From: a virus
IMG/VR virus record: IMGVR_UViG_3300044731_000789
Span: 12,203 to 76,202 of that record
Direction: 5' to 3' (one strand)
DNA: 64,000 bases
The notes beneath the pieces are model-generated. The model ran no database searches. It was not told where the DNA came from and saw only the letters and a program-made list of their open reading frames with translations. This document shows, piece by piece, positions 5,187-63,425 of the stretch. Position 1 is the stretch's first letter; the number at the start of each line of letters is the position of its first letter. A program made the position numbers and the translations under genes.

Positions 5187-5540
5187 ATGGATAAGAATGA
5201 AACAATTGTTTTAAATATTCATTTAAAAAATGGTGTTCAATTGATTGGAGAAATGGAATATTCTGATGAACATTCTACAGGAATTCTTAGACCAATTGAA
5301 ATCAGAAAAAGACCGTCATTCGGTAAAAATGGTGTATATGAAGTAATTACAACTTCTCCATTTTTATTAATGTCTGATTCATTTTTGTGTTCTATTCCAT
5401 CTTCAGAAATATTGGTACGAGGATGGTTACATGAAGATTTGTATGAAATGTACACAAAGTTAGCTTCAAAATATTATATGGATGTTTCTGAAATTATGGA
5501 AACAGATTTGCCCGACGAAGATAAAGGAACAATGCATTGA
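5187..5540 (+). CDS. Conserved hypothetical protein between uvsW and gp55 (possible Sm-like fold)
   Basis: L.NG..LIGE N-terminus and position. Confidence 0.5.
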   Translation: MDKNETIVLNIHLKNGVQLIGEMEYSDEHSTGILRPIEIRKRPSFGKNGVYEVITTSPFLLMSDSFLCSIPSSEILVRGWLHEDLYEMYTKLASKYYMDVSEIMETDLPDEDKGTMH

Positions 5541-6184
5541 TAGCAGAAATTCAAAATGCCAAAAAAGCCAAAGACATTTATGTAGACAATGAAAGATTTG
5601 CTGCAGAATATGATAAATGGATAACAGAAGTTCACCATGCTCGTGCAAATGGTCTAAAAGACCCAAGAATTACAGAATATCTTGGGGAATGTATTTTAAA
5701 AATTTGTACAAGATTAACCTATATGCCATCATTTTACAACTATAGTTGGAAAAATGAATTTATTACAAATGCTATAGAAAATTGTATTAAATATTTTGAT
5801 CGATATGATAAAAATGCCATTTCAAAAAGAACTGGTAAAAAAACTGCTGGACCGTTTTCATATTTTACAACTATTGCATATTGGGCGTTTGTTCGCACAA
5901 TTTTGATAGAGAAAAAAGAATTGAAGAAAAAGCAGAAATATATTTCTCAATTGTCTTCAGTGATTACAGAAATTAGAGAATATGATTCTGAAGAATTTGA
6001 CAATGAATATATAAATTATTTGAAACGGATGTTGGATGAAGATTTTTCGGGTGACGAAAAAAATGGTGAAAAGTTGAAAAAAGATGTTGACAATTTGGAA
6101 GAAGATGATATACTGGATATCATTGAATTGGACAAAGATTTGGCACTGGAAGTGTTGGAATATGATGAAGATGAAATTTTTTAG
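5537..6184 (+). CDS. gp55: Late-transcription sigma factor
   Basis: YVDNE.F...YLGECILKI..RL...F.NY...ENCIKY...PFSYFT.IAY.AF. Confidence 0.93.
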   Translation: MIAEIQNAKKAKDIYVDNERFAAEYDKWITEVHHARANGLKDPRITEYLGECILKICTRLTYMPSFYNYSWKNEFITNAIENCIKYFDRYDKNAISKRTGKKTAGPFSYFTTIAYWAFVRTILIEKKELKKKQKYISQLSSVITEIREYDSEEFDNEYINYLKRMLDEDFSGDEKNGEKLKKDVDNLEEDDILDIIELDKDLALEVLEYDEDEIF

Positions 6185-19369: not shown

Positions 19370-19535
19370 TTGGAATTTCGCAGGGATTCTGAGTTAACTC
19401 AACATCGTGATTGAGCTAACATGAACCATTGCAAATTGACATGTCATCCATACTGGTTTCACCAAGCAACGAAGTTGCGAAGCCAGAGCCAATTATGTCT
19501 ATGTCCGTTAATTTCCCAGTTCCCCTGGGTATTTG
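19370..19535 (-). ncRNA. Putative TnpB omega (re)RNA scaffold / right end
   Basis: Structured region after and overlapping the tnpB stop: CCCAG..CTGGG, GCAAC-TTC-GTTGC, GTTAGCTCAA..TTGAGTTAAC hairpins, then GAATCCC. Confidence 0.6.
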
Positions 19536-20662
19536 TTCGGTATTCCTAGATCAGATAAGCCTCTGGCTAGAATATTTTTAGCAGCATTTAAGTCTCGGTC
19601 ATGGAAAGTATTGCAGGAACTGCAAGTCCATTCCCGAATATGTAAAGACATTGGTGTTTCATGTCTATGACCACAAACATTGCAGTCTCTGCTAGTATAA
19701 TTGGGGTTGACCTTCAAGAATGTTCTTCCGTACCATTTGGATTTATATTCCAATAACCGGAAGAAATCAGACCATGAAGCATCAGCTATAGATCGAGATA
19801 ATCTTTTGTTTTTCAAAAGATTCTTGATTTTTAAGTCTTCTACGATAATAACATCGTTGGATTTTACTATCTTATAAGATAATTTGTGTAGAAAGTCCGA
19901 ACGGGAGTTCGATACTTTCTGGTAGATCAGAGCAACTGCTTTACGTTTCTTTTCTCGTCTATTAGATTCTTTTTTGGAACGAGACAAAGCACGTTGGGAA
20001 CGTTTAAGTGCTTTTAGTTTTTTCTTTAGAAATCGTGGATTCTCAACAGAATTTCCGTTGGAATCATAAAGAAAGACTTTTAAACCAGCATCAATACCAA
20101 TAATATTATTGGTGGCTGGAAATAAATCTACTTGACATTCTACAGAAAACGATATATGATACTTACCAGTGGCATCCAATGAAACAGTTGCCATTTTGGG
20201 TATCCCAGGAAATTCATGGGATACTTTAATTTTAACAGCACCTAGTTTTGGTAGTTTAAGAACTCCGTCCTTAAGGACAATATCCTGCATACGCACGGAT
20301 TTCTTGTTATACTTAGATTTGAATGTTGGTAAACCGGCTTTATTGGAACCTTTTGGTTTCTTTAAATCCCTAAAGAAATTAGAATACGCACTATTTAGGT
20401 CTAATAGTGATTGCCGTAGGCAAGTGCTAGGAACGTCAGATAACCAGTTAAAGTCTTCTTGTTTCTTTAAGATCGTAAGATCAGCAGATAACTGGTTGTT
20501 TGTTAGAGTGATACCTTGTTCTTTATAGGTATCACGTTTTAGTTTAAGATAATGGTTATAGACAAACCTTGAGCAACCAAACATTTTGTTTAGTAGTATC
20601 TTTTGTTGTTGGTTAGGATAAAACCTAACCTTGAAAGATTTGTTTATAGTATTTTTGTTCAT
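19508..20662 (-). mobile_element. tnpB: IS200/IS605-family RNA-guided endonuclease TnpB, with no transposase alongside
   Basis: N-terminal HTH (FGC.RFVYN), RuvC motifs GIDAG, VEDL and DRDLNAA, CxxC..CxxC zinc finger. Confidence 0.95.
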
Positions 20663-20689
20663 TACAATTATTTATCAAAAAAGGAATGT

Positions 20690-25956: not shown

Positions 25957-26235
25957 ATGCTATCAAAACCTAGAATAGTGTGTGCAGCAAATTTGTACCA
26001 AGATGGAACCATTATTGTTGGAGCAAGACATTTTGATTCCATTATGAGGAAAACCATTGAGGCAATTAATGCAGATTGGAACCATTGGCGACATATGACC
26101 CATGAGCAAGGTTTCATTGACCAACATGGTAAATTTTATTCAAGAGAGGATGCATGGGATATTGCCAAAGAAAATGGACAAATTTTTAGAGATTGTGATG
26201 TAGATGGTACACTATTTTCGGAGAATCTGTACTAA
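25957..26235 (+). CDS. Conserved phage hypothetical protein
   Basis: IVCAA...GARH...EQGFIDQ.G.F..RE.AW.IA...LFSE.LY. Confidence 0.6.
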   Translation: MLSKPRIVCAANLYQDGTIIVGARHFDSIMRKTIEAINADWNHWRHMTHEQGFIDQHGKFYSREDAWDIAKENGQIFRDCDVDGTLFSENLY

Positions 26236-26595
26236 TGATTAAAAAACAATTTTTGCAACATGGTATGTATTATTCCGGTATTTGCCGGAACGCAAATGTT
26301 GCCGATGAATTTGTACCACTGGATAATATATTATGAAAATAAATGAACACTTGGCAGAATCTGCCCGACATTTGGAACTAGCTATTGCAAAAATGGGAAA
26401 ATTGCGTGACCCTAAAGGTGGCCGGTATCCGGCAAGGTTTATTCCAAATAGGACATTTATATGGGTAGGAAAAATTGGAGATTATAAAAATCTTGTAAAA
26501 TGTTTATTAAAATTGAGAGATGCATCAAAGAAAATTGAGCACTTAGATATTTGAACAACAATAAATAATACTATCAAATTCCTTGGGATAGTATT

Positions 26596-26988
26596 ATGAA
26601 AACATTCAAACAATTATTGACAGAAGGTAGAGGCGACAATCATTTGGCAACAGAATTGTTTCATAAATGTCGCCAAGCTGCTACCTTTTCTCATTATCAA
26701 CACTTGATGACAGAAAGTTATGCCCAACATATGGCATTGGGCGCATTCTATGATGGAATTATCCCGCTTTTAGACAGTTTCCTGGAAACATATATTGGTT
26801 TATTTGGTAAACTAGAAACTATACAAGAAAATATTCAAGTACCTTTTAAAGTATCTGTATACGAGTTGAAAGAATGGATTGAAACCAATCGTCAACAAAT
26901 TTCTGATTCTACAACCCTTCAAAATATATTGGATACAATAGTTGAATTGTGTTCATCTACTATATACAAATTGGAAAATTTGAAATAA
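26596..26988 (+). CDS. Ferritin-like late protein with a capsid-targeting-like N-terminus
   Basis: MKTFKQLLTE resembles the T4 internal-protein leader; H..H..T.SYA.H.ALG..YD.......D...E.Y.G; ATAAATA upstream. Confidence 0.6.
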   Translation: MKTFKQLLTEGRGDNHLATELFHKCRQAATFSHYQHLMTESYAQHMALGAFYDGIIPLLDSFLETYIGLFGKLETIQENIQVPFKVSVYELKEWIETNRQQISDSTTLQNILDTIVELCSSTIYKLENLK

Positions 26989-27488
26989 TGGTTAAGTCTC
27001 TAGTAGATATTCAAATTGGTCAAGTATTGGATAAAATTGAATCCAATTTGGATGCATTTATTTCGCAATTGAATATTACATCTTTGGAAGATTTGTTACA
27101 TATATATGATGATTCAGAACTTTGTATAATGGATTCTGATGGAAATTATGTACAAGATATTCCAATGAATGAAGAAGTGGATAGAATGGAAAGAATTATG
27201 CGATCAATTAGGATGAAATCCCATAGTTATGATATCCATTTGCATAGAAAATTGGCAGTAAAGTTTCCAAGTTCTATACAAAAAATATCTCACAGAGCAA
27301 GGGCAGCAACTTTGTATTATGTGAAACATCATATTGACAAGAATTATAATAAATTGGCACCAATGGAACGTGCCCAAATTGATAGAATTGTTAAAGGTAG
27401 GAAGGGATTGGTGTCATCTATGACAACAAAAATGTACAACCATATTAGAGATATCGAACACACGCGATTGGCGCATCACAAACCATGA
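26988..27488 (+). CDS. Putative head/internal protein
   Basis: Late operon position; acidic N-terminal half and basic C-terminal half. Confidence 0.4.
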   Translation: MVKSLVDIQIGQVLDKIESNLDAFISQLNITSLEDLLHIYDDSELCIMDSDGNYVQDIPMNEEVDRMERIMRSIRMKSHSYDIHLHRKLAVKFPSSIQKISHRARAATLYYVKHHIDKNYNKLAPMERAQIDRIVKGRKGLVSSMTTKMYNHIRDIEHTRLAHHKP

Positions 27489-27637
27489 TTACAGAAGAAC
27501 TAACACCAGAACAGCAAGCAAAGGCAGAAGAGATTGTACAAGCCTTGAAATCGCACCAAGAAGAATTTAAAAAGAGATATGGGCCACGGTGGCGTGAAAT
27601 TTTGTACGCATTGGCAAACAAACAATCTAAAAAATAA
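27485..27637 (+). CDS. Small putative internal head protein (50 aa)
   Basis: EEIVQALK....FKKRYG..W....YA.A.K. Confidence 0.5.
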   Translation: MITEELTPEQQAKAEEIVQALKSHQEEFKKRYGPRWREILYALANKQSKK

Positions 27638-27638
27638 C

Positions 27639-28529
27639 TCAATCTAATCTTTTGCATTTCCATTTTTCATGGTGCAGTGATCTACCACATGCAACATTAC
27701 TCATACTACGCTGTGACAACCCATTTCCTTTACAAAACTGAGTTAAGTTTTTAATCACAAAAACCTCCCCATCAGGGGCTGTAATTTCCCAGGTTTTTGC
27801 TTTTGAATTAGCTATTTTATTGCGTATTTCTTTTGATAGGTTTTTACCAAAATTATGATTGAGATCACCCATTTTGGATTCTGACATTTTTCGTTTCGCT
27901 TCATCTGTATGCTTAACGCCATACATAGAGGATAATTCCCCACATTTTCCATACATTGGATTATTTTCCCCCGTATTAAGTTGACTTAATAATTGTTTTG
28001 TTTGGTCACTATGCTTGAATGTAGTCATGAAAATTTTTATTTTTTCTACATGTTCATCGGATAATTTCCTACCGTAATTGGGTGATAATTCCCCACGTTT
28101 TCCATACATTGGATTATTTTCCCCTATTCTTGATAGACTATATGATTTTCTCCGATCTTCCGAAAATAATGATTTCAATCGATCCTTTTCTTCATCGGTG
28201 TAAACCTTTCCGATCATGTTAAATTGTTTTATAGAATTTTTGTGGTAAGACTTATTAAGTTTTAACGCATTGTCCCAATTTTCAAATATCAATTCTTGTT
28301 CAAAATTGTAACACTCGATTGGGTCAACAAACATTGCAACAATATGCCAATCAAATTCATCAAAAATTGGTTTTACAATTTTGGAACTTGTTCTGTATTT
28401 AATCAAATCTTGTTCTGGGGGAAGTTTTATAGATTTTGCGGTTCTGGAACCAATATAAAATTGTCCAGTTTCACGATGGATGCCCATATAGACATATGGC
28501 AATACTTTGGTTGACCGATAAATAGTCAT
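27639..28529 (-). mobile_element. Free-standing GIY-YIG homing endonuclease with NUMOD3-like repeats (copy A)
   Basis: PYVY...FYIGSR; GENNPMYGK repeated; GGAGA SD before MTIY. Confidence 0.88.
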
Positions 28530-28584
28530 GCTGATTCTCCTTGGAAGAGTTAGAGCTTGTGGATGGTGGGACATCGTGACAAGC
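28530..28584 (+). ncRNA. Two-hairpin RNA antisense to the endonuclease leader (copy A)
   Basis: CTGATTC/GAGTTAG and GCTTGT-G-GATG..CATC-GTG-ACAAGC; same architecture at 52071-52126. Confidence 0.6.
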
Positions 28585-28611
28585 ATCAATTTAAACATTT
28601 ATTACAAGTAT

Positions 28612-28626
28612 TATTTATATAAATAA
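28612..28626. promoter_or_regulatory. Back-to-back late promoters TATTTATATAAATA
   Basis: TATAAATA on both strands between divergent genes. Confidence 0.7.
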
Positions 28627-28656
28627 TATAAACAGAATTTTAATTAGGGGAAAATT

Positions 28657-29454
28657 ATGAGTTTATGGTCAAAGGATTCAGCGAATCCTATTCCAAAATA
28701 TTTGTCAAAAAGTGATTTGGCAACATATCGCGCCCAGGATTGTTACATTGGGGCAGCAGGCTATTATTATGTGCCAGAAAAATTTAACAAAATTGGCGCA
28801 GGTACTATTACCACATCAACTAGTTCTACCGCAGTTACCGGAACTGGTTCAAAATTTTTGAGTGAAGCAAAAGTTGGGCAATGGTTAGTCAGCACACCTG
28901 ACAATAGTGCCACTGGCAGTTGGGATGCTAAATCCATTGTTGGGAAGATTGTTGCCATTGCGTCTGATACTGGTTTAACATTAGATAAAAATGCTCCAGC
29001 AACTGGCACTGGAAAATATAGTATTATACAAAAAGTTCAACCAGAATTGTTGGTTGCATTGAATCCATCATCCACAAGCCAAATTCCTGACAGACTTGGT
29101 GCAACAGAAATTGTGTCATTGGAATGGAAAGATAAGAAAACATTGGTTGCGGGTGCAACATCTACTATTATTGTACACTTCTCTGAGCCAGTTAAGGTTA
29201 CAGGTGCGCCAACATTGGGATTAAGTGGTGCAGTAACTGCAACATATTCATCCATGGATGCAACTGGCACTAAAGCAGCGTTTACATTTACTGCTCCGGT
29301 TGCCGGAACAAGTGTTACAATTTCTAACCAAAATTTGGGCGGCACTGGCAACATTGTTGATTTGTTGGGGGCATCTCCTGCAACAACTGCGGTGACATCT
29401 GTTGCAATTTCTGCAGCAGTTGCTGGAAAATTGCGATCTATTGTGTCTGCATAA
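28657..29454 (+). CDS. Virion structural protein with Ig-like/beta domains
   Basis: MSLW start; VTGTGSKF and FSEPV.VTG.PTL motifs; late promoter upstream. Confidence 0.65.
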   Translation: MSLWSKDSANPIPKYLSKSDLATYRAQDCYIGAAGYYYVPEKFNKIGAGTITTSTSSTAVTGTGSKFLSEAKVGQWLVSTPDNSATGSWDAKSIVGKIVAIASDTGLTLDKNAPATGTGKYSIIQKVQPELLVALNPSSTSQIPDRLGATEIVSLEWKDKKTLVAGATSTIIVHFSEPVKVTGAPTLGLSGAVTATYSSMDATGTKAAFTFTAPVAGTSVTISNQNLGGTGNIVDLLGASPATTAVTSVAISAAVAGKLRSIVSA

Positions 29455-29532
29455 TAATATATAATATTGTAAATAAATAATGGGAACATATGTAAAAGTA
29501 TGTTCCCATTTTTTATTGGAGTAAACAAACTC

Positions 29533-29964
29533 ATGACAGATTTAAAAATTTCTCAGCAACCATTGGCAACTACTGTTGAACTAACTGATAACTTTGTTGT
29601 TGCCAGAAATGGAACAAATGTTAGAATACCGGCATCAACCTTGTATACAAAGGCTCCCACATATATTGCCACAAATCAGGTAACAGAACAGGTTACAGCA
29701 AGTGGAGCACTAGATATATCAAAATCTTTGTCCGAAGTTGTCACCACAAATAGTCAAATTAATTTGACATTATCTGGTGGAACCCATGGACAAGAGAAAG
29801 TTATCCTATTTAGAAACAAAGGTACTGCAGATGTGGTTATTACACCAAATTTGTTAATAGGTGGCACAACTATCACATTGAATGCAACTGGACAAACCGT
29901 GACATTAAGATTTGTCACAAATGCATGGGCAATTGTCGCAATTTATGGCGGAATTGTTGCATAA
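29533..29964 (+). CDS. Virion structural protein
   Basis: MTDLKISQ.P; LTL..G..GQ.K.I; Thr-rich beta composition. Confidence 0.55.
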   Translation: MTDLKISQQPLATTVELTDNFVVARNGTNVRIPASTLYTKAPTYIATNQVTEQVTASGALDISKSLSEVVTTNSQINLTLSGGTHGQEKVILFRNKGTADVVITPNLLIGGTTITLNATGQTVTLRFVTNAWAIVAIYGGIVA

Positions 29965-30305
29965 TGGTTTTAACGGAAGAAAATTTTAAATTAGCTTGTG
30001 CCAAATATTATGATTCAATTGACATATATTCTTTTAACGAGGATATTGCAAGAATACATATGGTAAGAAAATTGATTAGAAAATTTATATCAACTGGTGA
30101 TATAAATGAAAAATTAATTTTAAATCACATCATAATATTATATAATGGGTTTGGAGAGTTTACTCTCAATATATTATATTTTATATTTACAAAAGAGGAA
30201 TACAAATATATAAATTCCTTTTTAATATTTTTAAATAGATTACCAGATGACAGATTTGTATATGGTATTGATATAACACTTTCAAAAAAATTGGAACAGA
30301 TATGA
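29964..30305 (+). CDS. Conserved T4-like phage protein
   Basis: LTEENF....AK.YD...F.ED..R...LILNHIIILYN.FG. Confidence 0.65.
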   Translation: MVLTEENFKLACAKYYDSIDIYSFNEDIARIHMVRKLIRKFISTGDINEKLILNHIIILYNGFGEFTLNILYFIFTKEEYKYINSFLIFLNRLPDDRFVYGIDITLSKKLEQI

Positions 30306-30469
30306 AATCATTCAAACAAATTATGGAAGATATTGCCAATGTTACTGGGTCACCCAGTACAGATACTGGTGGAATATCCACCCCAGCTACAGCAAAACCT
30401 GATCAAAAGAAAAGGGTAATGTTATTAAAAAATGTTGTAAAAAGAAAAGAGGATTCGCCAAATGGCTAA
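30302..30469 (+). CDS. Small putative internal head protein
   Basis: MKSFKQIMED leader. Confidence 0.5.
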   Translation: MKSFKQIMEDIANVTGSPSTDTGGISTPATAKPDQKKRVMLLKNVVKRKEDSPNG

Positions 30470-30854
30470 CCAATTTGATCACCATGATGCACCCAATAAT
30501 GTAAAATTATACACGGAAATTGAGTTATTAAAACGGGACAATTTGCAGTTGAAAGAAATTCTTTCAAAATTGGATGTATCCGTGGAAAAAATTGCAGATG
30601 CCGCCACAAACATTTCCAAAATTTTGGCTCTTCATGAGCAAAGAGTAGGAATGCTGTCTGAAGATATTGCATATTTCAGCAAAAATCATACCGAAATATT
30701 GGCTGATATAAAATCTACAAAAGATACTATTGCAAAAGATAACAAAGAACGTGATGAAAGAATCACCAAATTGGAACAATATCGTTGGTATCTACTTGGG
30801 GCAGCAACTGCCATAGGATTTGTAATAAACAAATTGCCAGATTTGTTAAAATAG
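30462..30854 (+). CDS. Coiled-coil protein with a C-terminal membrane anchor
   Basis: KLD...EK......I..ILA.HEQR...RI.KLEQYRW followed by a hydrophobic tail. Confidence 0.6.
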   Translation: MANQFDHHDAPNNVKLYTEIELLKRDNLQLKEILSKLDVSVEKIADAATNISKILALHEQRVGMLSEDIAYFSKNHTEILADIKSTKDTIAKDNKERDERITKLEQYRWYLLGAATAIGFVINKLPDLLK

Positions 30855-31317
30855 TTGTTGACAAATTGGTTTTTTGTGATATTATGTGCCCATGAAAAAG
30901 AAAACACAAAAACCAACATCAAGAAATTTTGTTGCCAAACATTGTTCTACTTATTGTAAACCAAAAGTAGAACAATCTAAAAAGGTATACAAACGGTCAA
31001 AAAATCTGTCACAATATATGTAACAGATTTCTAATACATTATGGGAAATACTATGAACAAAACATATCAATGGTTATTAATTTTTGGATGTATATTAAAA
31101 TTCTATGATCAATAACATGAAATTTACAATTAATGATAAAGTAATTGCTACCAGAGATATCAGTAATTCTTTTGGTACACTATTGGCAACAAAAGGTGAC
31201 ATATTGGAAGTTGTTGGATTAGAATCCGGTGTATGTGATTATCCATATGTTGTGTGGAATGGTTCCAATAGTAAAGAATTTTGTGTAGAAGAATACGAAA
31301 TAAATTTGGATCAAGTA

Positions 31318-51383: not shown

Positions 51384-52070
51384 TCATTCTACCTTTGTAC
51401 ATATCCACCCCTTATGGTTTTCCATGGTCCCTTTGTTTACATGTAACATACACCCGTAGGATAATCCATAAGTCTTACAAAATTTAGATAAATTTCTTTG
51501 GAAAATAACTTCACCCTCTGGTGAAGTTATTTTCCAATTGTTTGAATTTATATCTGATGCCCTAGTTATAACACCCAGATACCAACCGTCCCCAGGACAT
51601 TCCTTTTGAAATTTGCATATTGATCCATCTGTCCACCATTTACTATTTCTATTGTGTGATCTATTTCCCTTAGCTATTTCTGATTGTTTTCGTCTTGCTT
51701 CCATGGTATGCTTTTTTCCATACATGCTATTATTAACTCCAAACCTATTAATATCCCTATATACAAATACTTTATCAATATTAGTAACTGCTTGGTTCAA
51801 CAATAACTTATTGGACCATTTTGACTGGATAAATTCTTGTTCAAATTTAAATGCGTCATATGCATCAAAAAATATTGCAACTATGTGCCAATCAAATTCA
51901 TCGAATATTGGCTTTACCACTTTAGAGCTGGTTCTATATTTAACCAAATCTTGTTCTGGTGGAAGTTTGAGTTTCTTGGTTGTTCTGGAACCAATATAAA
52001 ATTGACCAGTTACGCGATGTATTCCCATATAAACATATGGTAATACTTTTGTTGATGTATAAATAGTCAT
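51384..52070 (-). mobile_element. Free-standing GIY-YIG homing endonuclease (copy B, N-terminus paralogous to 27639-28529)
   Basis: MTIY.STKVLPYVYMGIHR.TGQFYIGSRT...KLPPEQDL.KYRTSSK.VKPIFDEFDWHIVA shared with copy A. Confidence 0.88.
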
Positions 52071-52126
52071 GCTGATTCTCCCGATTAGAATTAGAATGTA
52101 TGGGAACGACCAATTCCGCGATACAT
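52071..52126 (+). ncRNA. Two-hairpin RNA antisense to the endonuclease leader (copy B)
   Basis: TATAAATA at 52058-52065, then CTGATTCT/AGAATTAG and ATGTAT-G-GGAA..TTCC-GCG-ATACAT. Confidence 0.6.
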
Positions 52127-52164
52127 AACTATTTATTAATTAATATATGTGGGGGGTGAATAAT

Positions 52165-58198: not shown

Positions 58199-58744
58199 AG
58201 ATATAGGAAAATTTATTTTCAGGGAAATGTATAAAATTGTATAAAAAGATGTTGACAAGTTTGGTGAAAGGGATACAATAAACCATCTTTTATACAAAAC
58301 AGGAATAAAACAATGTCTCCATTCATCTGCTCAAAAAAACATATGCAAACCATTGCATACAATTATGTTAATCTGTTCTATGATCAATTAGATCAAAATG
58401 ATCACAATATTCTTGCAATTGCAACAATTCTTTATAAAGAAAATATAAAAAGTGTTAACTGGCGATATGATGAAAACCATGTAGCCAGAAAATACAAAAA
58501 ATTGGATAATTCCATTATAAAAGATTGCTCACTAATTCAGTTATACAAATTGGTTCTATGCCTGGACTACCAATCATGTGAAACAACTACTTATATAAAT
58601 TCACACGCAAAAGCAATTTTATCTCAAATTGAAGCAAAAATTGTGCCAATGATTTCAAGTGCATTTGGTCAAGATGCACATGTATGGTATAATGAACCTT
58701 TATACAATGATGCAGAATGGTGCATCTAATTGTATAAAAAATTG

Positions 58745-60169
58745 TTGACAATCCATTTTATACAATTATAATAACCAAATCAGTTAACAAACTTGGAACA
58801 AAATTATGAAATCAGAATTTACAGAAAAACGTCTTCAATGGGTAAAAATTGCTACATCACAATTCGGCAATGGTGCAATTCTTTCAATGAAAGAAATAAA
58901 CCAAGTTTCGCAAAAACATAATCTACCAGTTCCACAATGGTTTTATACCAATGACAAATACAAAGTCGCCAGAAGTCAGTATAAATTGCCAGAATTGGTC
59001 GAAATTATGCCCACTGTGGGGCACCAATTAAATTTGGCTACCATAGGTGCGGGTCGCACCCAGATGGCCCCAGAAGTGCCCAAAATTGCCGAAAAATCAG
59101 ATGACGAATTATTGTTGGAAATTTCCCAAAGTTTTGAAACATTGGATATAATGACTGCAGCTATTAAAAATGGTTCTGCAACCAGTTTTATCGTGGGTGG
59201 TGATGCAGGTATCGGAAAAAGTCACAATGTTGAAAAAACCCTTGGTACAAGCAATCCAAATGTTTTTTATGTGCATGGTAAATGTACAGCAGTAAATTTG
59301 TACAAAAAATTGTATGAATATAGACATAAAGGACAAATTATTGTAATCGATGATTCGGACGAACTATTTTTTGACGAGGTTTCACTTAATTTGTTGAAAA
59401 ATGCATTGGATACCAAAGAAAACAGACATCTTTCATGGTTATCCGAAAAAATATTGGTAAATGATGAAGGCGACATTCCAAACACTTTTAACTATCGTGG
59501 TTCAGTAATCTTTATTTCAAATATCGACTTTTACCAAGAAATCGAAAAAGGTTCAAAATTATCTAAACATCTTAATGCACTAATGTCAAGATCATTCTAC
59601 CTTGATATCAAATTTGAGTCAAAAAGAAAATCCTTTTTACATATGACTAATGTATTGTATAATGGTTTGATACATGAATTAGATTTGTCACAAGATCAAC
59701 AAGATCAATTGATCAATTATATCGAAGAAAACTTGGACAGAATGCGCGAAATTACGCCAAGAGCAGCCAAAAAAATTGGCAGCATAATGAAAAGCCCACA
59801 ATGGCGAATGCTTGCAAACAGAATGTGCTTAAAATCATAAAAAATTGTTGACAATCCATTTTATACAATTATAATAAACCAACTTCAACAAAATCGGAAA
59901 AGAAAATGGAACACAAAAATTGGAACCAAAGACCATTAGTAGAATTTGTAATAAACTTTGCAAAAACTATGCCAGAAACTTCCAAGTCAACTTGCCAGAA
60001 TTTGTTGAAAAATGAATTGATTACAATTCAAACTGACCTAAAATTGTTCAAGTCTTGCAACATTCGCGGCGAACTTGATTTTATGGTAAAACAATGGGAA
60101 ATCAAAGAAGATGTACACAAATTGGCTATTCAATTAATTTCTTGACAATCCATTTTATACAATTATAAT
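58745..60169 (+). repeat. Three near-identical early promoters TTGACAATCCATTTTATACAATTATA
   Basis: Copies begin at 58745, 59848 and 60142. Confidence 0.85.
58806..59840 (+). CDS. P-loop/AAA ATPase, early gene
   Basis: GDAGIGKS Walker A, VIDDSD Walker B, LK.ALD, IFISN, SR. Confidence 0.85.
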   Translation: MKSEFTEKRLQWVKIATSQFGNGAILSMKEINQVSQKHNLPVPQWFYTNDKYKVARSQYKLPELVEIMPTVGHQLNLATIGAGRTQMAPEVPKIAEKSDDELLLEISQSFETLDIMTAAIKNGSATSFIVGGDAGIGKSHNVEKTLGTSNPNVFYVHGKCTAVNLYKKLYEYRHKGQIIVIDDSDELFFDEVSLNLLKNALDTKENRHLSWLSEKILVNDEGDIPNTFNYRGSVIFISNIDFYQEIEKGSKLSKHLNALMSRSFYLDIKFESKRKSFLHMTNVLYNGLIHELDLSQDQQDQLINYIEENLDRMREITPRAAKKIGSIMKSPQWRMLANRMCLKS

Positions 60170-62336
60170 AACAACATTCTTAACCAATAGGCAAACAACA
60201 ATGAAACATAGAATTATCAAAGTGTTTAAAACCCCTGGTCAATATGATGTAAAATTGTACAGAATGAATTCAAGTTTACCATCACAACAACAAGATTCTG
60301 TTAATTGCTTTGCCATAGAATATGGAACACATTTTTCAGAATATCTCAACTATGCAGAAGCCTGCAAAGAATTGGGCGAATGTTTAATGCATGCATTACA
60401 ATGCGCCAATAAATTGGACTAATCATAATGAATAATATTACCAAAGAACAACAAAAAAAAGCAAACATTGTAGCCAGAAGAGCAGGATATCAAAAAGCAA
60501 CAAAAATTGTTTTTACTGGTGAAAATAAAGTTATTTCCCGCACAAATGGTGGATATAGAAAATATACTACAGGCGAATATGTATCAAATGCATACAGAAC
60601 AAAATTTGGATGGAAAAATACATACTACCAACATGCAGAAACAATTGTATCAATATGAATAACCATACTATCACATATGAACAACTTTTGTCAAATAATT
60701 GGGTGCCAATGTCTTGCAAGATTTCTTGCCAAGATTTTTGGACAAAATTTAATCAATTATCAATAAACAAAAATTGTAGAAAAATTGTTGTATATCCTTA
60801 AAATGTTGGTATAATAAACCAACTTCAACAAACAAAAAGGAACAAAACAATGTCAACATTCACCACGTTAGAAGTCTTAACAGAATTGCTTCAAGACCTA
60901 TACGACAAACCAGATGCACCACTCAATTATATCAAAGCAGTCGAAAATTCTATTGAAGTATTCAAAACACAAGCAATTGACCTGGATTTAACACGATTTG
61001 TTAATCAATATCAACCATTGTACCAAATTACTTTTTTAACTGATACAGAAGTCACACACAATTTTACCAGCTTGATAGATTTAAAACAGTTTGTTGAGGG
61101 ATATGCATCAATGCGGGAACAATATATTACCGTTACCGGCACATATGATTATTCAGCATTCTACACAGAATTGTGTGACGGAGTGCATATTTTTTCACAA
61201 TCAACTGTGAAAAAAATCCTTGCAATGTACAAATAATTGTTTATAATTTACACATAATTTAACAAACAACAAGGAATGCATCCGCATTCTGCAAAAAGGA
61301 ACAAAATCATGACCATTAATTCAAATCAAAAAAATTCTTCAATTATCTCGGAAGTAGACTTCCCAGAATTGGAACAAACTAATCTCAACGATTTGGCATC
61401 AGATTTTTCAGAATCCATTTCGGTAGATTATTCTACCAAAGATTGGGAAAACGATTTCACAAAATCTTATGAGTGGGATTATTAAAAATGAAGTTAACTG
61501 TAATCAACAAAAAAACCAAACAAAAACAACATATAATTGCAACAAATATTACACAATTTTATATTGACAAAAAACATAAAGAATGCCTCAGAATAGAATT
61601 GCCAAATGGCCAATTTCAAAACTTTGTTAAAAATGATCACGATTTTATTCTAGGACATGGCGGAAATATTGTAAAATAAATTTTACATCTTTCCGAAAAT
61701 TAGTATATAATATACGCATACTTTAAACAACAAGGAATACAACAATGCAAACATATAAAATAAATGCAGAAGTATTTGAAGTCTATACTCATGATGGTGG
61801 TGGAATTAGTGCTATACACATCGCATATTTTACAACCGAATCAGATGCAAAAAAAGTATGTAAAGACACTAGTCATTGGCGCATTAGGAAAACAACAATA
61901 GCACACACATACCACATTTGCGAATCTATCGAAGATTTGGATGCATTAACAGATATCCAAAAACGGGATAGAATTCTATCAAAATTGACACCAGATGAAA
62001 TAAAATTTTTAGGATTACAATAATAGCTTGACATAAAATTGTCTACAAGTATAATAAACCAACTTAAACAAAATTGGAAAAAGAAAATGAACCAACAACA
62101 ATTGCAAAATTATACAAACTCTATGATAGACCTTCTATCCATAAAAATTGATAAAAATGGTTTCTATTATACCTCATGGGGCAAAAAATCGTTTCAAGGT
62201 CTGCAAGAAACTTTTAAATCAATACTACAACAAAATGGTGTTGACTTTATTCAAAATTAGTCTATAATTTACAGCATACAAACAAACAAACAAACAACAA
62301 GGAATGCATCCGCATTCTGCAAAAAGGAACAAAACA

Positions 62337-62720
62337 ATGGCCTACATCAACCAAGATACCAAAAAATTAATCCATGCAGCTCTTAAACCAATCTTTCAAA
62401 AATATGGCCTAAAAGCGTCACTAGGCATTGACAACAACTCAACACTCGTTATCAATATTAATAAAGGTAAACTAGACTTTATTCAAAATTATAACAACCT
62501 AACAAAAAATCAAGCAAAAGATCAACTACATGTCAACCATTATTGGTACAATAAACATTTCAACGGCGATTGCCAAAAATGCCTGCATGAAATTATTACA
62601 ACAGCAAACAATGTAGGTAAAAATTATGATAACTCAGATATTCAATCAGATTATTTTGATATCGGTTTTTACCTCGATGTCAACATAGGTAAATGGAACA
62701 AACCTTATCAAATATTATAA
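62337..62720 (+). CDS. Conserved phage early protein
   Basis: MAYI.Q..K......LK....KYG.K.SL...YD.SDI..DYF...Y..V.IG.W.KPY. Confidence 0.65.
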   Translation: MAYINQDTKKLIHAALKPIFQKYGLKASLGIDNNSTLVININKGKLDFIQNYNNLTKNQAKDQLHVNHYWYNKHFNGDCQKCLHEIITTANNVGKNYDNSDIQSDYFDIGFYLDVNIGKWNKPYQIL

Positions 62721-62855
62721 ACATCCCTTTTTTGCCATTCAGAATGCTTCAGAATGCGGTAGCATTCCTTTTAGCATTCCTATTTAAAGATTGTTCTTTA
62801 CAATTGCAAAAAGAAATTGTATAATATACACATAATTTAAATAAGGAATAATACC

Positions 62856-63077
62856 ATGTTTCAACCATCAACAAAATCATTCAAACCAGTAACAAACAAA
62901 CCAAAAATTGTAAAAAAATACGAATGCTCAGACCTTTACAATTGTTGCAATTGTGGCGGCGAAAATTGCGGCTGTGGCGGCTGCTTCTCTTGTAATGCAT
63001 GTCCTACATGCATCGATAATCAAGATTTACCAGATGGCGAAGAATTGCCCTGCGAACTATTAAATTGTGAATGGTAA
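62856..63077 (+). CDS. Cys-rich small protein
   Basis: CCNCGG..CGC..CFSCNAC..C; SD and promoter upstream. Confidence 0.6.
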   Translation: MFQPSTKSFKPVTNKPKIVKKYECSDLYNCCNCGGENCGCGGCFSCNACPTCIDNQDLPDGEELPCELLNCEW

Positions 63078-63425
63078 AATATTTTACACATCTTGCGAAA
63101 ATTTGTGTATAATAAACCAACTTAAACAAAATTGGAAAACAAAAAATGTCATCAGAAACTTTAAAACAACTTAAAAAAGACCTGATGTCATCTGTTCCAG
63201 AAATGGCATGCAAAAATTCGCTGGAATTCCAGCAAAGATTGCAATGGCTCTCTGAAGGAATGCTACAAGGAATGCTAAAGCATTCTGCACAACCACTTAC
63301 ATGACATTACAAATCAGAATACCTTGGTATTCCTATTATGTCATCAATCAATAGGAATGCTAAAGCATTCTGATCAGAAATTACGATCTATAATAACTTT
63401 GTAACAAAAAGGAATGCTTTATAAC

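What the first reader, a model, noticed from the sequence alone, without database searches (positions are those of the whole stretch)
28517..28619. GIY-YIG endonuclease family carrying its own conserved antisense two-hairpin RNA (copy A)
Seen: the first codons M-T-I-Y read as (T/G)ATAAATA on the opposite strand (28517-24; perfect at 52058-65). This late promoter would start a transcript at about GCUGAUUCU. Hairpin 1 (CUGAUUC/GAGUUAG here, CUGAUUCU/AGAAUUAG in copy B) needs G-U pairs, so it favours the + strand. After a single A comes hairpin 2 with identical geometry in both copies (6 bp, G opposite GYG, 4 bp, 6-7 nt loop) but largely different sequence: GCUUGU/ACAAGC vs AUGUAU/AUACAU and GAUG/CAUC vs GGAA/UUCC. 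The gene's own late promoter faces it from 28612-19. Inference: a nuclease-plus-RNA module in which the RNA silences the ribosome-binding site, acts as an antitoxin or partner of the nuclease, or lets the element restore late transcription of the host operon it interrupts. I do not recognise this motif as described.
Basis: partly seen in the sequence, partly recalled or inferred. Interest (0 to 1): 0.8.

Follow-up and report, generated by a model that had tools for sequence, protein, structure and literature searches.

The report
Antisense RNA cassette heading homing endonucleases
The stretch is one copy of a portable control cassette of about 100 bases at the start of selfish DNA-cutting-enzyme genes in uncultured T4-like lake phages; its conserved two-hairpin fold lies on the strand opposite the gene, so it probably makes a small antisense RNA that restrains the nuclease, though no RNA data confirm this yet.

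Summary
Both minus-strand GIY-YIG/NUMOD3 nuclease genes (27639-28529 and 51384-52070) carry the two hairpins over their 5' leader, flanked by two facing late-promoter boxes.

A covariance model finds 69 instances next to homologous genes. A protein-independent pattern scan of IMG/VR adds 53 more.
- On the strand opposite the gene, 99% of pair cells are standard pairs, and 15 of 17 pairs show double changes.
- There are 224 G-U cells on that strand, against 3 that would be G-U on the gene's strand.
- Hairpin 1 folds better on the antisense strand in 62 of 62 sequences.
- The antisense ATAAATA box is kept at synonymous sites. Codon 2 is NNT in 111 of 117 genes, and codons 3-4 are ATT-TAT. The box sits 6 nt before hairpin 1.

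The phage has a gp55 late sigma factor. New here: the cassette is not specific to GIY-YIG. It also heads HNH, HNH_3 and TnsA-like nuclease genes, all starting M-x-I-Y, with up to 13 copies per genome.

Best reading: a cis-antisense RNA like IS10 RNA-OUT. Expression is unproven. Rfam has no match. Hairpins upstream of such genes were noted in 2009, read as sense-strand. This scan had already found the same cassette on other genomes.

The parts
27639..28529 (-). Homing endonuclease gene A (296 aa, GIY-YIG type N-terminal domain plus NUMOD3 repeats); starts M-T-I-Y
   Evidence: ORF. NUMOD3 at 1.4e-26. PHROG homing endonuclease. 22 of 62 homologs hit PF01541 GIY-YIG. Y25, G27, R29, E77 and N92 are invariant or nearly so.
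28517..28524 (+). Antisense late-promoter-like box GATAAATA (core ATAAATA at 28518-28524), formed by codon 2 third base through codon 4 of the nuclease gene
   Evidence: Exact ATAAATA is present in 98 of 120 family members, 6 nt before hairpin 1 in 81 of them. Synonymous-site conservation.
28530..28530 (+). Predicted start of the antisense RNA (G, one base before hairpin 1)
   Evidence: Inference only. T4-type late promoters span -13 to -6 (PMC1524935), and the last A of the box is at 28524.
28531..28553 (+). Hairpin 1 of the antisense RNA. The 8-bp stem has two G-U pairs. The loop holds CUCCUU, the complement of the gene's Shine-Dalgarno AAGGAG (28537-28542).
   Evidence: Fold. Family-wide there are 114 G-U cells on this strand and 0 on the other. 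The antisense strand folds better in 62 of 62.
28555..28584 (+). Hairpin 2: 6 bp, then G paired with the middle base of GYG (two bulged G), then 4 bp and a 6-nt loop
   Evidence: All 10 pairs covary. G-U bias is 25 to 3 for this strand.
28527..28594 (+). Whole match to covariance model R1 (copy A)
   Evidence: 64.9 bits, E 1e-18
28612..28619 (-). TATAAATA facing the element: late promoter of nuclease gene A. It lies further out than in the family consensus, where the box sits 3-5 nt before hairpin 2.
   Evidence: In copy A the consensus position holds a degenerate TTTAAATT.
28618..28625 (+). The host's own TATAAATA late promoter for the downstream plus-strand gene 28657-29454. It overlaps the minus-strand box.
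27595..28612 (.). Probable extent of the inserted nuclease cassette, judged from a nuclease-less allele
   Evidence: One metatranscriptome contig joins 27594 to 28613. Weak: one contig, 36 letters on the short side.
51384..52070 (-). Homing endonuclease gene B (228 aa), a paralog of A. The N-terminal domain is about 74% identical.
52058..52136 (+). Copy B of the cassette: TATAAATA 52058-52065, predicted start 52071, hairpin 1 52072-52094, hairpin 2 52096-52126, model match 52068-52136
   Evidence: 68.8 bits
52130..52137 (-). AATAAATA, the late promoter box of gene B, 3 nt before hairpin 2 (consensus position)
5537..6184 (+). gp55-type late sigma factor of the phage. Not part of the cassette, but needed for the promoter reading.
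   Evidence: phrog_234 late sigma transcription factor, 6.1e-39

Best explanation
The finding is one copy of a portable control cassette at the 5' end of free-standing homing endonuclease genes in uncultured T4-like phages. Two facing late-promoter boxes (core ATAAATA, read by the phage's gp55-type sigma factor) enclose about 68 bases.

The outer box drives the nuclease mRNA. The inner box is written into codons 2-4 of the gene (ATG NNT ATT TAT). It drives a small RNA of about 65-75 nt on the opposite strand, predicted to start at G28530 in copy A and G52071 in copy B.

This RNA folds into two hairpins. Hairpin 1 sits at its 5' end and shows the complement of the gene's Shine-Dalgarno sequence in its loop. 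Hairpin 2 is an 11-bp helix with two conserved bulged G, followed by a U-rich tail.

The RNA is fully complementary to the mRNA's leader, ribosome-binding site and start codon. Pairing would block ribosome binding and create a double-stranded RNA open to cleavage, which keeps nuclease output low. The G-U pairs make the antisense RNA stable. The same positions are A-C mismatches in the mRNA, so its ribosome-binding site stays open until the antisense RNA binds. The hairpin-1 half is nearly the same in all copies of a genome, so the RNAs could act on each other's mRNAs.

Shown: the fold, its strand, its linkage to nuclease genes and the conservation of the box. Inferred: transcription, the RNA's ends, pairing and repression.
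For: 1. Structure. On the antisense strand 99.1% of pair cells are standard pairs and 15 of 17 pairs have double changes; 0 of 500 shuffles reach this. RNAalifold finds the same fold independently.
2. Strand. G-U cells number 122 against 3 in the protein-selected set and 102 against 0 in the pattern-selected set. Hairpin 1 averages -6.6 kcal/mol antisense against -2.3 sense, and the antisense strand is better in 62 of 62. Hairpin 2 shows 25 against 3, p = 3e-5.
3. Promoter.
- A gp55 homolog is present.
- ATAAATA occurs 28 times on the gene strand and 7 times on the other. Twelve of the 28 lie 8-70 nt before gene starts, where 3 are expected.
- At Ile3, ATT is used in 60 of 63 genes, against 46% at other conserved Ile positions (p = 1e-13). 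At Tyr4, TAT is used in 61 of 65, against 71% elsewhere (p = 4e-5).
- The third base of codon 2 is T in 111 of 117 genes although the amino acid varies. Conservation stops exactly at the end of the 7-mer.
- The spacing to hairpin 1 is fixed at 6 nt in 81 of 98 instances. Under the T4 rule of -13 to -6 (PMC1524935), this places +1 one base before the stem.
4. Own transcript. Twenty loci have the nuclease gene co-oriented with its neighbours, so host read-through cannot supply this strand. There the fold is just as intact: 302 Watson-Crick cells, 37 G-U cells and 1 A-C cell.
5. General control device. The cassette heads unrelated nuclease families. Copy numbers are 13, 10, 8, 7 and 2 in five large phage records.
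6. Precedents. IS10 RNA-OUT is a 69-nt antisense RNA to the transposase translation start and shows multicopy inhibition (PMC5006887). CfrI is an antisense RNA to a homing endonuclease gene in the T4-like phage S-PM2 (PMC2984593).
Against: - No transcript has been observed. The two freshwater metatranscriptome runs that hold parts of the region give no contig over the cassette or the nuclease gene, and contigs could not show strand or ends anyway.
- Copy A has G rather than T at the first promoter position.
- The terminator scan finds no intrinsic terminator after hairpin 2, so the 3' end is uncertain and the RNA may run on into the next gene.
- AT-rich early codons are also favoured for translation. 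That could explain part of the codon bias, though not the exact 7-mer, the absence of ATC, or the fixed spacing.
- The model-fitted alignment leans toward the modelled strand. The unfitted MAFFT alignment gives the same picture.
- Many instances are related by descent, so cell counts overstate the number of independent events.
Confidence: 0.55

Rival explanations
1. Outward promoter plus structured leader for the host. The inner box restarts late transcription of the host gene lying beyond the inserted nuclease gene. The two hairpins form a protective 5' end of that host mRNA. This lowers the cost of the insertion and makes loss of the element harmful. It could hold alongside the antisense-control reading, as it does for pOUT of IS10.
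For: - Cassette-bearing nuclease genes lie opposite to their neighbours in about 2 of 3 to 3 of 4 loci: 36 to 12 and 26 to 8, and 32 to 17 and 33 to 17.
- The next host gene on the antisense strand starts a median of 49 nt after the element.
- In copy B no other ATAAATA lies between the element and the gene at 52147.
- One locus (L224) keeps an intact cassette beside a 48-aa nuclease remnant, 82 nt before a host gene.
- Promoters for downstream genes embedded in T4 seg and mob genes are known (PMC2988022).
Against: - The fold and its G-U bias are kept equally in 20 loci where the nuclease gene is co-oriented with its neighbours. There the RNA would run antisense into a host gene.
- At copy A and in L224 the host gene has its own TATAAATA closer to its start.
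- A plain promoter would not need two covarying hairpins with conserved bulged G.
Confidence: 0.2
2. Sense-strand translational hairpin of the T4 type. The hairpins fold in the nuclease mRNA and mask its ribosome-binding site, and the late promoter is placed so that late transcripts escape. This is the arrangement of I-TevI, segB and Aeh1 mobE, and it was proposed for hairpins upstream of environmental homing endonuclease genes by Dassa et al. 2009.
For: - A late-promoter box sits 3-5 nt before hairpin 2 on the sense strand in most members.
- Hairpin 2 is nearly as stable on the sense strand: -9.2 against -9.9 kcal/mol.
- The Shine-Dalgarno sequence lies inside the hairpin-1 region.
- The paradigm is documented (PMC2988022; PMC2677866).
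Against: - On the sense strand hairpin 1 carries 114 A-C mismatch cells and averages only -2.3 kcal/mol, so it cannot mask the ribosome-binding site.
- The promoter lies before hairpin 2, not inside the hairpin that holds the Shine-Dalgarno sequence, so late transcripts would not escape.
- Most of these genes are antisense to their neighbours, so there is no early read-through mRNA to silence.
- This reading does not explain the conserved ATAAATA in codons 2-4.
Confidence: 0.1
3. The RNA is a partner, cofactor or decoy that binds a protein. The protein could be the nuclease itself or a common phage or host factor, recognised through the conserved bulged-G motif of hairpin 2. Under this reading the RNA does not act by base pairing.
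For: Hairpin 2 has invariant features that a plain stem would not need: U-A, bulged G, G-Y pair, bulged G, G-C. Its stems vary freely between copies.
Against: A specific partnership with the nuclease is unlikely, because the same RNA heads GIY-YIG, HNH, HNH_3 and TnsA-like enzymes that share only the four leading codons. Nothing here tests protein binding. A common factor such as Hfq or RNase III would fit the antisense model as well.
Confidence: 0.07
4. A DNA-level element, such as a single-strand hairpin or cruciform used in recombination or homing, or a protein operator. No functional RNA would be involved.
For: I-TevI represses its own late promoter by binding an operator (PMC2988022). Inverted repeats can act as DNA.
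Against: - Stems covary freely instead of keeping a sequence, which does not fit an operator.
- A strong G-U against A-C asymmetry tied to the gene's orientation, not the genome's, fits RNA.
- The element is flanked by promoter boxes at start-site distance.
Confidence: 0.03

Closest known systems
IS10/Tn10 RNA-OUT and RNA-IN (pOUT facing pIN)
   Same: In both, a mobile element's own nuclease-type gene has a promoter facing its 5' end from inside. That promoter gives a structured antisense RNA of about 70 nt, complementary to the translation start region. IS10 control is copy-number dependent and acts in trans (PMC5006887). Here there are up to 13 copies per genome with a shared hairpin-1 half.
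   Different: This element has two hairpins instead of one. It uses phage gp55-type late promoters rather than sigma-70. The genes are homing endonucleases of several families rather than a transposase. The overlap covers the whole leader (about 68 nt) rather than 35 nt. No experiment exists for the phage cassette, and there is no sequence relation.
RBS-masking hairpins with a nested late promoter in T-even and Aeh1 homing endonuclease genes (I-TevI, I-TevII, I-TevIII, segB, mobE)
   Same: Both are in T4-like phages, at homing endonuclease genes, with a TATAAATA-type late promoter next to a hairpin just upstream of the ribosome-binding site (PMC2988022).
   Different: In T4 the hairpin is stable on the mRNA and holds the ribosome-binding site, and the promoter lies inside it. 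Here the hairpin that contains the Shine-Dalgarno sequence is weak on the mRNA (-2.3 kcal/mol) and strong on the opposite strand. A second promoter box faces inward from codons 2-4.
Conserved 5'-UTR hairpins with TATAAATA upstream of free-standing GIY-YIG and Vsr-like endonuclease genes in ocean-survey 'fractured gene' loci (Dassa et al. 2009, PMC2677866)
   Same: That paper reports hairpins in 15 of 16 leaders. Ten have a late-promoter box, and two conserved motifs pair with each other. The hairpins are shared by different endonuclease families and are kept where the endonuclease gene was lost. This is very likely the same or a sister cassette.
   Different: The authors read it as a sense-strand translational hairpin. 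They give no strand test, no antisense promoter and no covariance model. I could not compare sequences, because the figures are not held.
CfrI antisense RNA of cyanophage S-PM2 (Millard et al. 2010, cited in PMC2984593)
   Same: It is an experimentally detected antisense RNA to a homing endonuclease gene in a T4-like phage.
   Different: CfrI is about 225 nt and links the endonuclease gene to psbA. Its function is unknown, and no shared fold or cassette has been reported. I did not compare it here.
Type I toxin-antitoxin pairs with cis-antisense RNA (hok/sok, symE/SymR)
   Same: A small structured antisense RNA overlaps the translation start of a potentially harmful protein.
   Different: Nothing suggests post-segregational killing here. 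The genes are homing endonucleases in lytic phage genomes. This comparison rests on established knowledge only.

Membership tests
T4-type (gp55) late promoter | TATAAATA-like box at -13 to -6, with the first T poorly conserved in many T4-like phages (PMC1524935) | tested here: met
   GATAAATA at 28517-28524 and TATAAATA at 52058-52065 on the plus strand. TATAAATA at 28612-28619 and AATAAATA at 52130-52137 on the minus strand.
T4-type (gp55) late promoter | The phage encodes the late sigma factor | tested here: met
   Window 5537-6184 matches phrog_234 late sigma transcription factor at 6.1e-39
T4-type (gp55) late promoter | The box is enriched before genes on the coding strand of this genome | tested here: met
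   ATAAATA occurs 28 times on the plus strand and 7 on the minus. Twelve of the 28 lie 8-70 nt before plus-strand gene starts, where 3.0 are expected. Three of the 7 minus-strand hits precede the three minus-strand nuclease genes. The full 8-mer alone is not over-represented.
T4-type (gp55) late promoter | Transcripts start 6 nt after the box late in infection | not testable with these tools
   Only assembled metatranscriptome contigs were available, and none lies over the cassette
Cis-encoded antisense RNA regulator (IS10 RNA-OUT type) | A promoter on the opposite strand, inside the 5' end of the target gene | tested here: met
   At the sequence level only. ATAAATA in codons 2-4 is conserved at synonymous sites and has a fixed 6-nt spacing.
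Cis-encoded antisense RNA regulator (IS10 RNA-OUT type) | A stable fold selected on the antisense strand, with target-complementary bases in a loop | tested here: met
   G-U cells are 224 against 3. Hairpin 1 is better on the antisense strand in 62 of 62. The anti-Shine-Dalgarno CUCCUU lies in the loop.
Cis-encoded antisense RNA regulator (IS10 RNA-OUT type) | The RNA is made and lowers expression of the target | not testable with these tools
   No RNA evidence and no experiment
RBS-masking hairpin with nested late promoter (I-TevI / mobE type) | A stable hairpin on the mRNA that contains the ribosome-binding site | tested here: not met
   Sense-strand hairpin 1 averages -2.3 kcal/mol and has 114 A-C mismatch cells
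RBS-masking hairpin with nested late promoter (I-TevI / mobE type) | The late promoter lies inside the masking hairpin, so late transcripts lack its 5' arm | tested here: not met
   The sense box lies 3-5 nt before hairpin 2, upstream of both hairpins
GIY-YIG homing endonuclease (the adjacent gene) | GIY-YIG catalytic domain: two Tyr motifs, Arg, Glu and Asn | tested here: met
   YVY...FYIGSR...E77...N92 are invariant or nearly so in 62 homologs. 22 of 62 hit PF01541, best 3.8e-7. The window protein itself stays below the Pfam threshold, and no PDB relative is found by sequence.
GIY-YIG homing endonuclease (the adjacent gene) | Mobile: presence/absence alleles at the same site | tested here: inconclusive
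   One RNA-library contig joins 27594 to 28613, skipping the gene and cassette. The support is weak.
Any Rfam family | A match at or near the gathering score | tested here: not met
   No hit at gathering score in the window. Nothing relevant at E up to 10 on the region or at E up to 1 on three related loci.
Intrinsic terminator (for the 3' end of the antisense RNA) | A G+C-rich stem followed directly by a run of U | tested here: not met
   The terminator scan finds nothing in 27400-28800. The tail after hairpin 2 is A-Y-U-U-W-U-A-U-U-U, which is U-rich but interrupted.
Dassa et al. 2009 endonuclease-leader hairpins | The same sequence motifs and hairpin | not testable with these tools
   The text describes conserved, mutually complementary motifs plus TATAAATA. 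The sequences are only in figures, which are not held.

The most novel reading that the evidence does not exclude
The cassette encodes a family of small antisense RNAs that form a genome-wide brake on all homing endonucleases of a phage. With up to 13 copies per genome, the shared hairpin-1 half would let every RNA pair with every nuclease mRNA, as in multicopy inhibition. The conserved bulged-G helix of hairpin 2 would recruit a common factor. The cassette would move between unrelated nuclease genes as a unit that includes their first four codons. This would be a new and abundant class of phage regulatory RNA, and it would explain how T4-like phages tolerate dozens of selfish nucleases.
Probability: 0.3. 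Interest if true: 0.8.

Novelty: new variant of a known kind. Interest (0 to 1): 0.68.

Why it matters
Homing endonuclease genes crowd the genomes of T4-like phages, and how their output is kept harmless is only partly understood. The textbook answer is a masking hairpin in the mRNA. This cassette points to a second, antisense-RNA solution.

- It is widespread.
- It is shared by at least three nuclease superfamilies.
- It is written partly into the first four codons of the gene. That is a clear case of a regulatory element dictating a protein's N-terminus.
- It would add a well-supported RNA family that is absent from Rfam.
- It gives a simple handle for finding free-standing nuclease genes in metagenomes.
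- The question can be tested with one Northern blot or 5'-end map in any culturable carrier.

Tried and rejected
- DNA search of 27400-29500 against cultured phages gave no match. A protein search found only distant relatives in Vi1-like phages (35-42% identity). They start at residue 10-11, so they lack the M-x-I-Y leader. I found no cultured carrier.
- Rfam at gathering and relaxed thresholds gave nothing relevant.
- RNA evidence. Laid on 26000-31000, they cover neighbouring genes in patches but not 27670-28500 or the cassette. This says nothing about expression either way.
- The terminator scan found none.
- The profile of the nuclease family against PDB sequences gave no relative.
- The whole 8-mer TATAAATA is not over-represented in the window: 8 found against 12.8 in shuffles. 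The promoter case therefore rests on position, strand, the 7-mer core and gp55, not on raw counts.
- Guide-RNA idea, rejected. The only variable single-stranded parts are loops of 6-8 nt, and the linked nucleases are protein-guided families.
- A second hairpin type is not matched by model R1 and was left aside. It is a perfect stem followed by TTCTAATCAC, before genes starting MPNTIY (L019, L027, L076, L114, L162).
- My first start-codon calls were off in a few loci (for example L159, L166, L202 and L209). I corrected this by anchoring on the model match.
Full report
**What is there**

The window is part of a 76-kb IMG/VR contig of a T4-like phage (32% G+C). Nearly all genes lie on the plus strand. 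Three genes lie on the minus strand, all mobile nucleases: a TnpB gene and two paralogous homing endonuclease genes, A (27639-28529) and B (51384-52070).

Both A and B have NUMOD3 DNA-binding repeats and match PHROG homing-endonuclease families. Their N-terminal domain belongs to a family in which 22 of 62 members hit Pfam GIY-YIG. The expected Tyr, Gly, Arg, Glu and Asn residues are invariant or nearly so.

- GATAAATA (28517-28524) and TATAAATA (52058-52065) are the reverse complement of codons 2-5.
- Hairpin 1 follows, then a single A, then hairpin 2 with the stated geometry.
- A late-promoter box faces the element on the minus strand.

**Is it more than chance**

I collected relatives of the nuclease from metagenome and viral contigs and lined up the 5' leaders. 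Most show the same layout. An ATAAATA box comes first, then hairpin 2 after 3-5 nt, then UCUAAC, a short variable stem around AAGGAG, AUCAGC, and finally ATG NNT ATT TAT.

I built a covariance model on the strand opposite the gene. It finds 69 instances in these loci and exactly two in the phage contig. On that alignment 99.1% of pair cells are standard pairs and 15 of 17 pairs show changes on both sides. No shuffle out of 500 reaches any measure, and slid registers pair at only 31-43%. RNAalifold on the plain MAFFT alignment predicts the same two hairpins. It adds a pair between the lone G and the middle base of GYG, so hairpin 2 is an 11-bp helix with two bulged G.

**Which strand**

- In the protein-selected set, 122 cells are G-U on the antisense strand. 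Only 3 would be G-U on the gene's strand.
- In a second set found without any protein information, the counts are 102 and 0.
- One G-U is invariant. The others sit at variable positions, where U-G, U-A and C-G alternate. That is the expected path of change for a helix read on this strand only.
- Hairpin 1 folds at -6.6 kcal/mol on the antisense strand against -2.3 on the mRNA strand, and the antisense strand is better in 62 of 62.
- Hairpin 2 is stable on both strands but still shows a 25 to 3 bias.

So the mRNA's ribosome-binding site is left open, while the opposite strand makes a well-folded RNA with the anti-Shine-Dalgarno sequence in a loop.

**Is there a promoter for that strand**

The phage encodes a gp55-type late sigma factor. 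The 7-mer ATAAATA occurs 28 times on the coding strand and 7 times on the other. Twelve of the 28 lie 8-70 nt before gene starts, where 3 are expected. Three of the 7 minus-strand copies precede the three minus-strand nuclease genes. T4-type late promoters span -13 to -6, and the first T is poorly conserved among T4-like phages (PMC1524935).

In the cassette, the 7-mer on the antisense strand is made of the third base of codon 2 plus codons 3 and 4.
- The third base of codon 2 is T in 111 of 117 genes, although the amino acid varies.
- Ile3 is ATT in 60 of 63 genes, against 46% at other conserved Ile positions.
- Tyr4 is TAT in 61 of 65 genes, against 71% elsewhere.
- Conservation stops at codon 5.
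- The exact 7-mer is present in 98 of 120 unique instances. It lies 6 nt before hairpin 1 in 81 of them, which puts the start one base before the stem (G28530 and G52071).

The sense box lies 5 or 3 nt before hairpin 2.

**Not a GIY-YIG trait**

I scanned IMG/VR with a pattern that contains no coding sequence and checked the hits with the model. This gave 53 new instances. Their adjacent genes all begin M-x-I-Y but belong to different families. These include several GIY-YIG/NUMOD3 types, HNH (PF01844), HNH_3 (PF13392), a TnsA-like endonuclease, and others that PHROGs call homing or HNH endonucleases.

The cassette, including the first four codons, is therefore a portable unit shared by unrelated nucleases. 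That makes a specific RNA-nuclease partnership unlikely. Five large phage records hold 13, 10, 8, 7 and 2 copies.

**Host context**

Cassette-bearing genes point against their neighbours in about two thirds to three quarters of loci. The next host gene on the antisense strand starts a median of 49 nt beyond the element. This keeps alive the idea that the inner promoter also serves the host gene, most plausibly at copy B, which has no other box before the gene at 52147.

It cannot be the whole story, for three reasons.
- In 20 loci where the nuclease gene is co-oriented with its neighbours, the fold and its G-U bias are just as intact.
- Copy A's host gene keeps its own TATAAATA at 28618-28625.
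- So does the host gene next to a cassette beside a decayed nuclease gene in L224.

One RNA-library contig joins 27594 to 28613. This suggests a nuclease-less allele and an insert that includes the whole cassette (weak).

**Mechanism proposed**

Late in infection the two facing promoters give a nuclease mRNA and a fully complementary antisense RNA of about 70 nt. Hairpin 1 presents CUCCUU to the mRNA's open Shine-Dalgarno region. Pairing blocks the ribosome and gives double-stranded RNA. Convergent transcription over 80 bp may add interference. The shared hairpin-1 half allows action in trans among copies.

Only the fold, the strand, the box and the linkage are shown. The rest is inferred by analogy with IS10 RNA-OUT (PMC5006887).

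**What is known**

- T4 and Aeh1 homing endonuclease genes use masking hairpins with a nested late promoter (PMC2988022). The two defining features of that device were tested here and not met.
- Dassa et al. 2009 saw conserved hairpins with TATAAATA before GIY-YIG and Vsr-like endonuclease genes in ocean-survey data and read them as such masks (PMC2677866). This is probably the same or a sister element, but I could not compare sequences.
- An antisense RNA to a homing endonuclease gene, CfrI, is known in cyanophage S-PM2 (PMC2984593).
- Rfam holds nothing like the cassette. Two literature searches found no description of an antisense reading.
- Earlier follow-ups in this scan reached the same reading on other genomes. 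I reached mine before reading them, and their notes led me to two of the papers above.

**Verdict**

I file this as a new variant of a known kind, namely antisense control of a mobile element's nuclease gene. It is a well-supported, widespread and unnamed RNA family.

Noticed in passing
window 27594 / 28613: A 151-nt contig from a freshwater RNA library joins these two positions and skips 1018 bases. These bases hold nuclease gene A and its cassette. This suggests a related phage without the insert.
   Followed up: partly
L224:3054-3318: The best-scoring cassette of the pattern set (82 bits) sits beside only a 48-aa remnant of a GIY-YIG gene. It lies between two host genes, 82 nt before a gene that has its own TATAAATA. 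The cassette has outlived its nuclease gene here.
   Followed up: partly
L169:1150-1259: Here the cassette is followed by an 11-codon mini-ORF (MNIYNNTILLK). About 40 nt further on comes a RusA-like Holliday junction resolvase gene (phrog_244, 6.5e-18). So the cassette heads a gene that is not a classic homing endonuclease.
   Followed up: partly
L019, L027, L076, L114, L162 (about 80 nt before the nuclease start): Relatives whose proteins start MPNTIY or MTETTY carry a different leader. It has a late-promoter box, a perfect hairpin of about 11 bp without bulges, then TTCTAATCAC and the ribosome-binding site. There is no ATAAATA in the early codons. Model R1 does not match it.
   Followed up: no
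G003 (361-kb IMG/VR record with terminal repeats, reached through L228): A complete jumbo-phage record holds 13 copies of the cassette. Ten of them are on one strand.
   Followed up: no
window 20669-20676 (-): The minus-strand TnpB gene (19508-20662) also has GATAAATA just before its start codon, but no two-hairpin cassette. So all three minus-strand nuclease genes of the contig have their own late-promoter box.
   Followed up: no
window 28612-28625: The minus-strand TATAAATA for nuclease gene A and the plus-strand TATAAATA for the host gene overlap by two bases in a near-palindrome (TATTTATATAAATA). This lies exactly at the right edge of the presumed insert.
   Followed up: no
window 58700-63150: There is a run of strong sigma-70-type promoters (TTGACA-17-TATAAT) before small plus-strand genes. 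It looks like the phage's early region.
   Followed up: no
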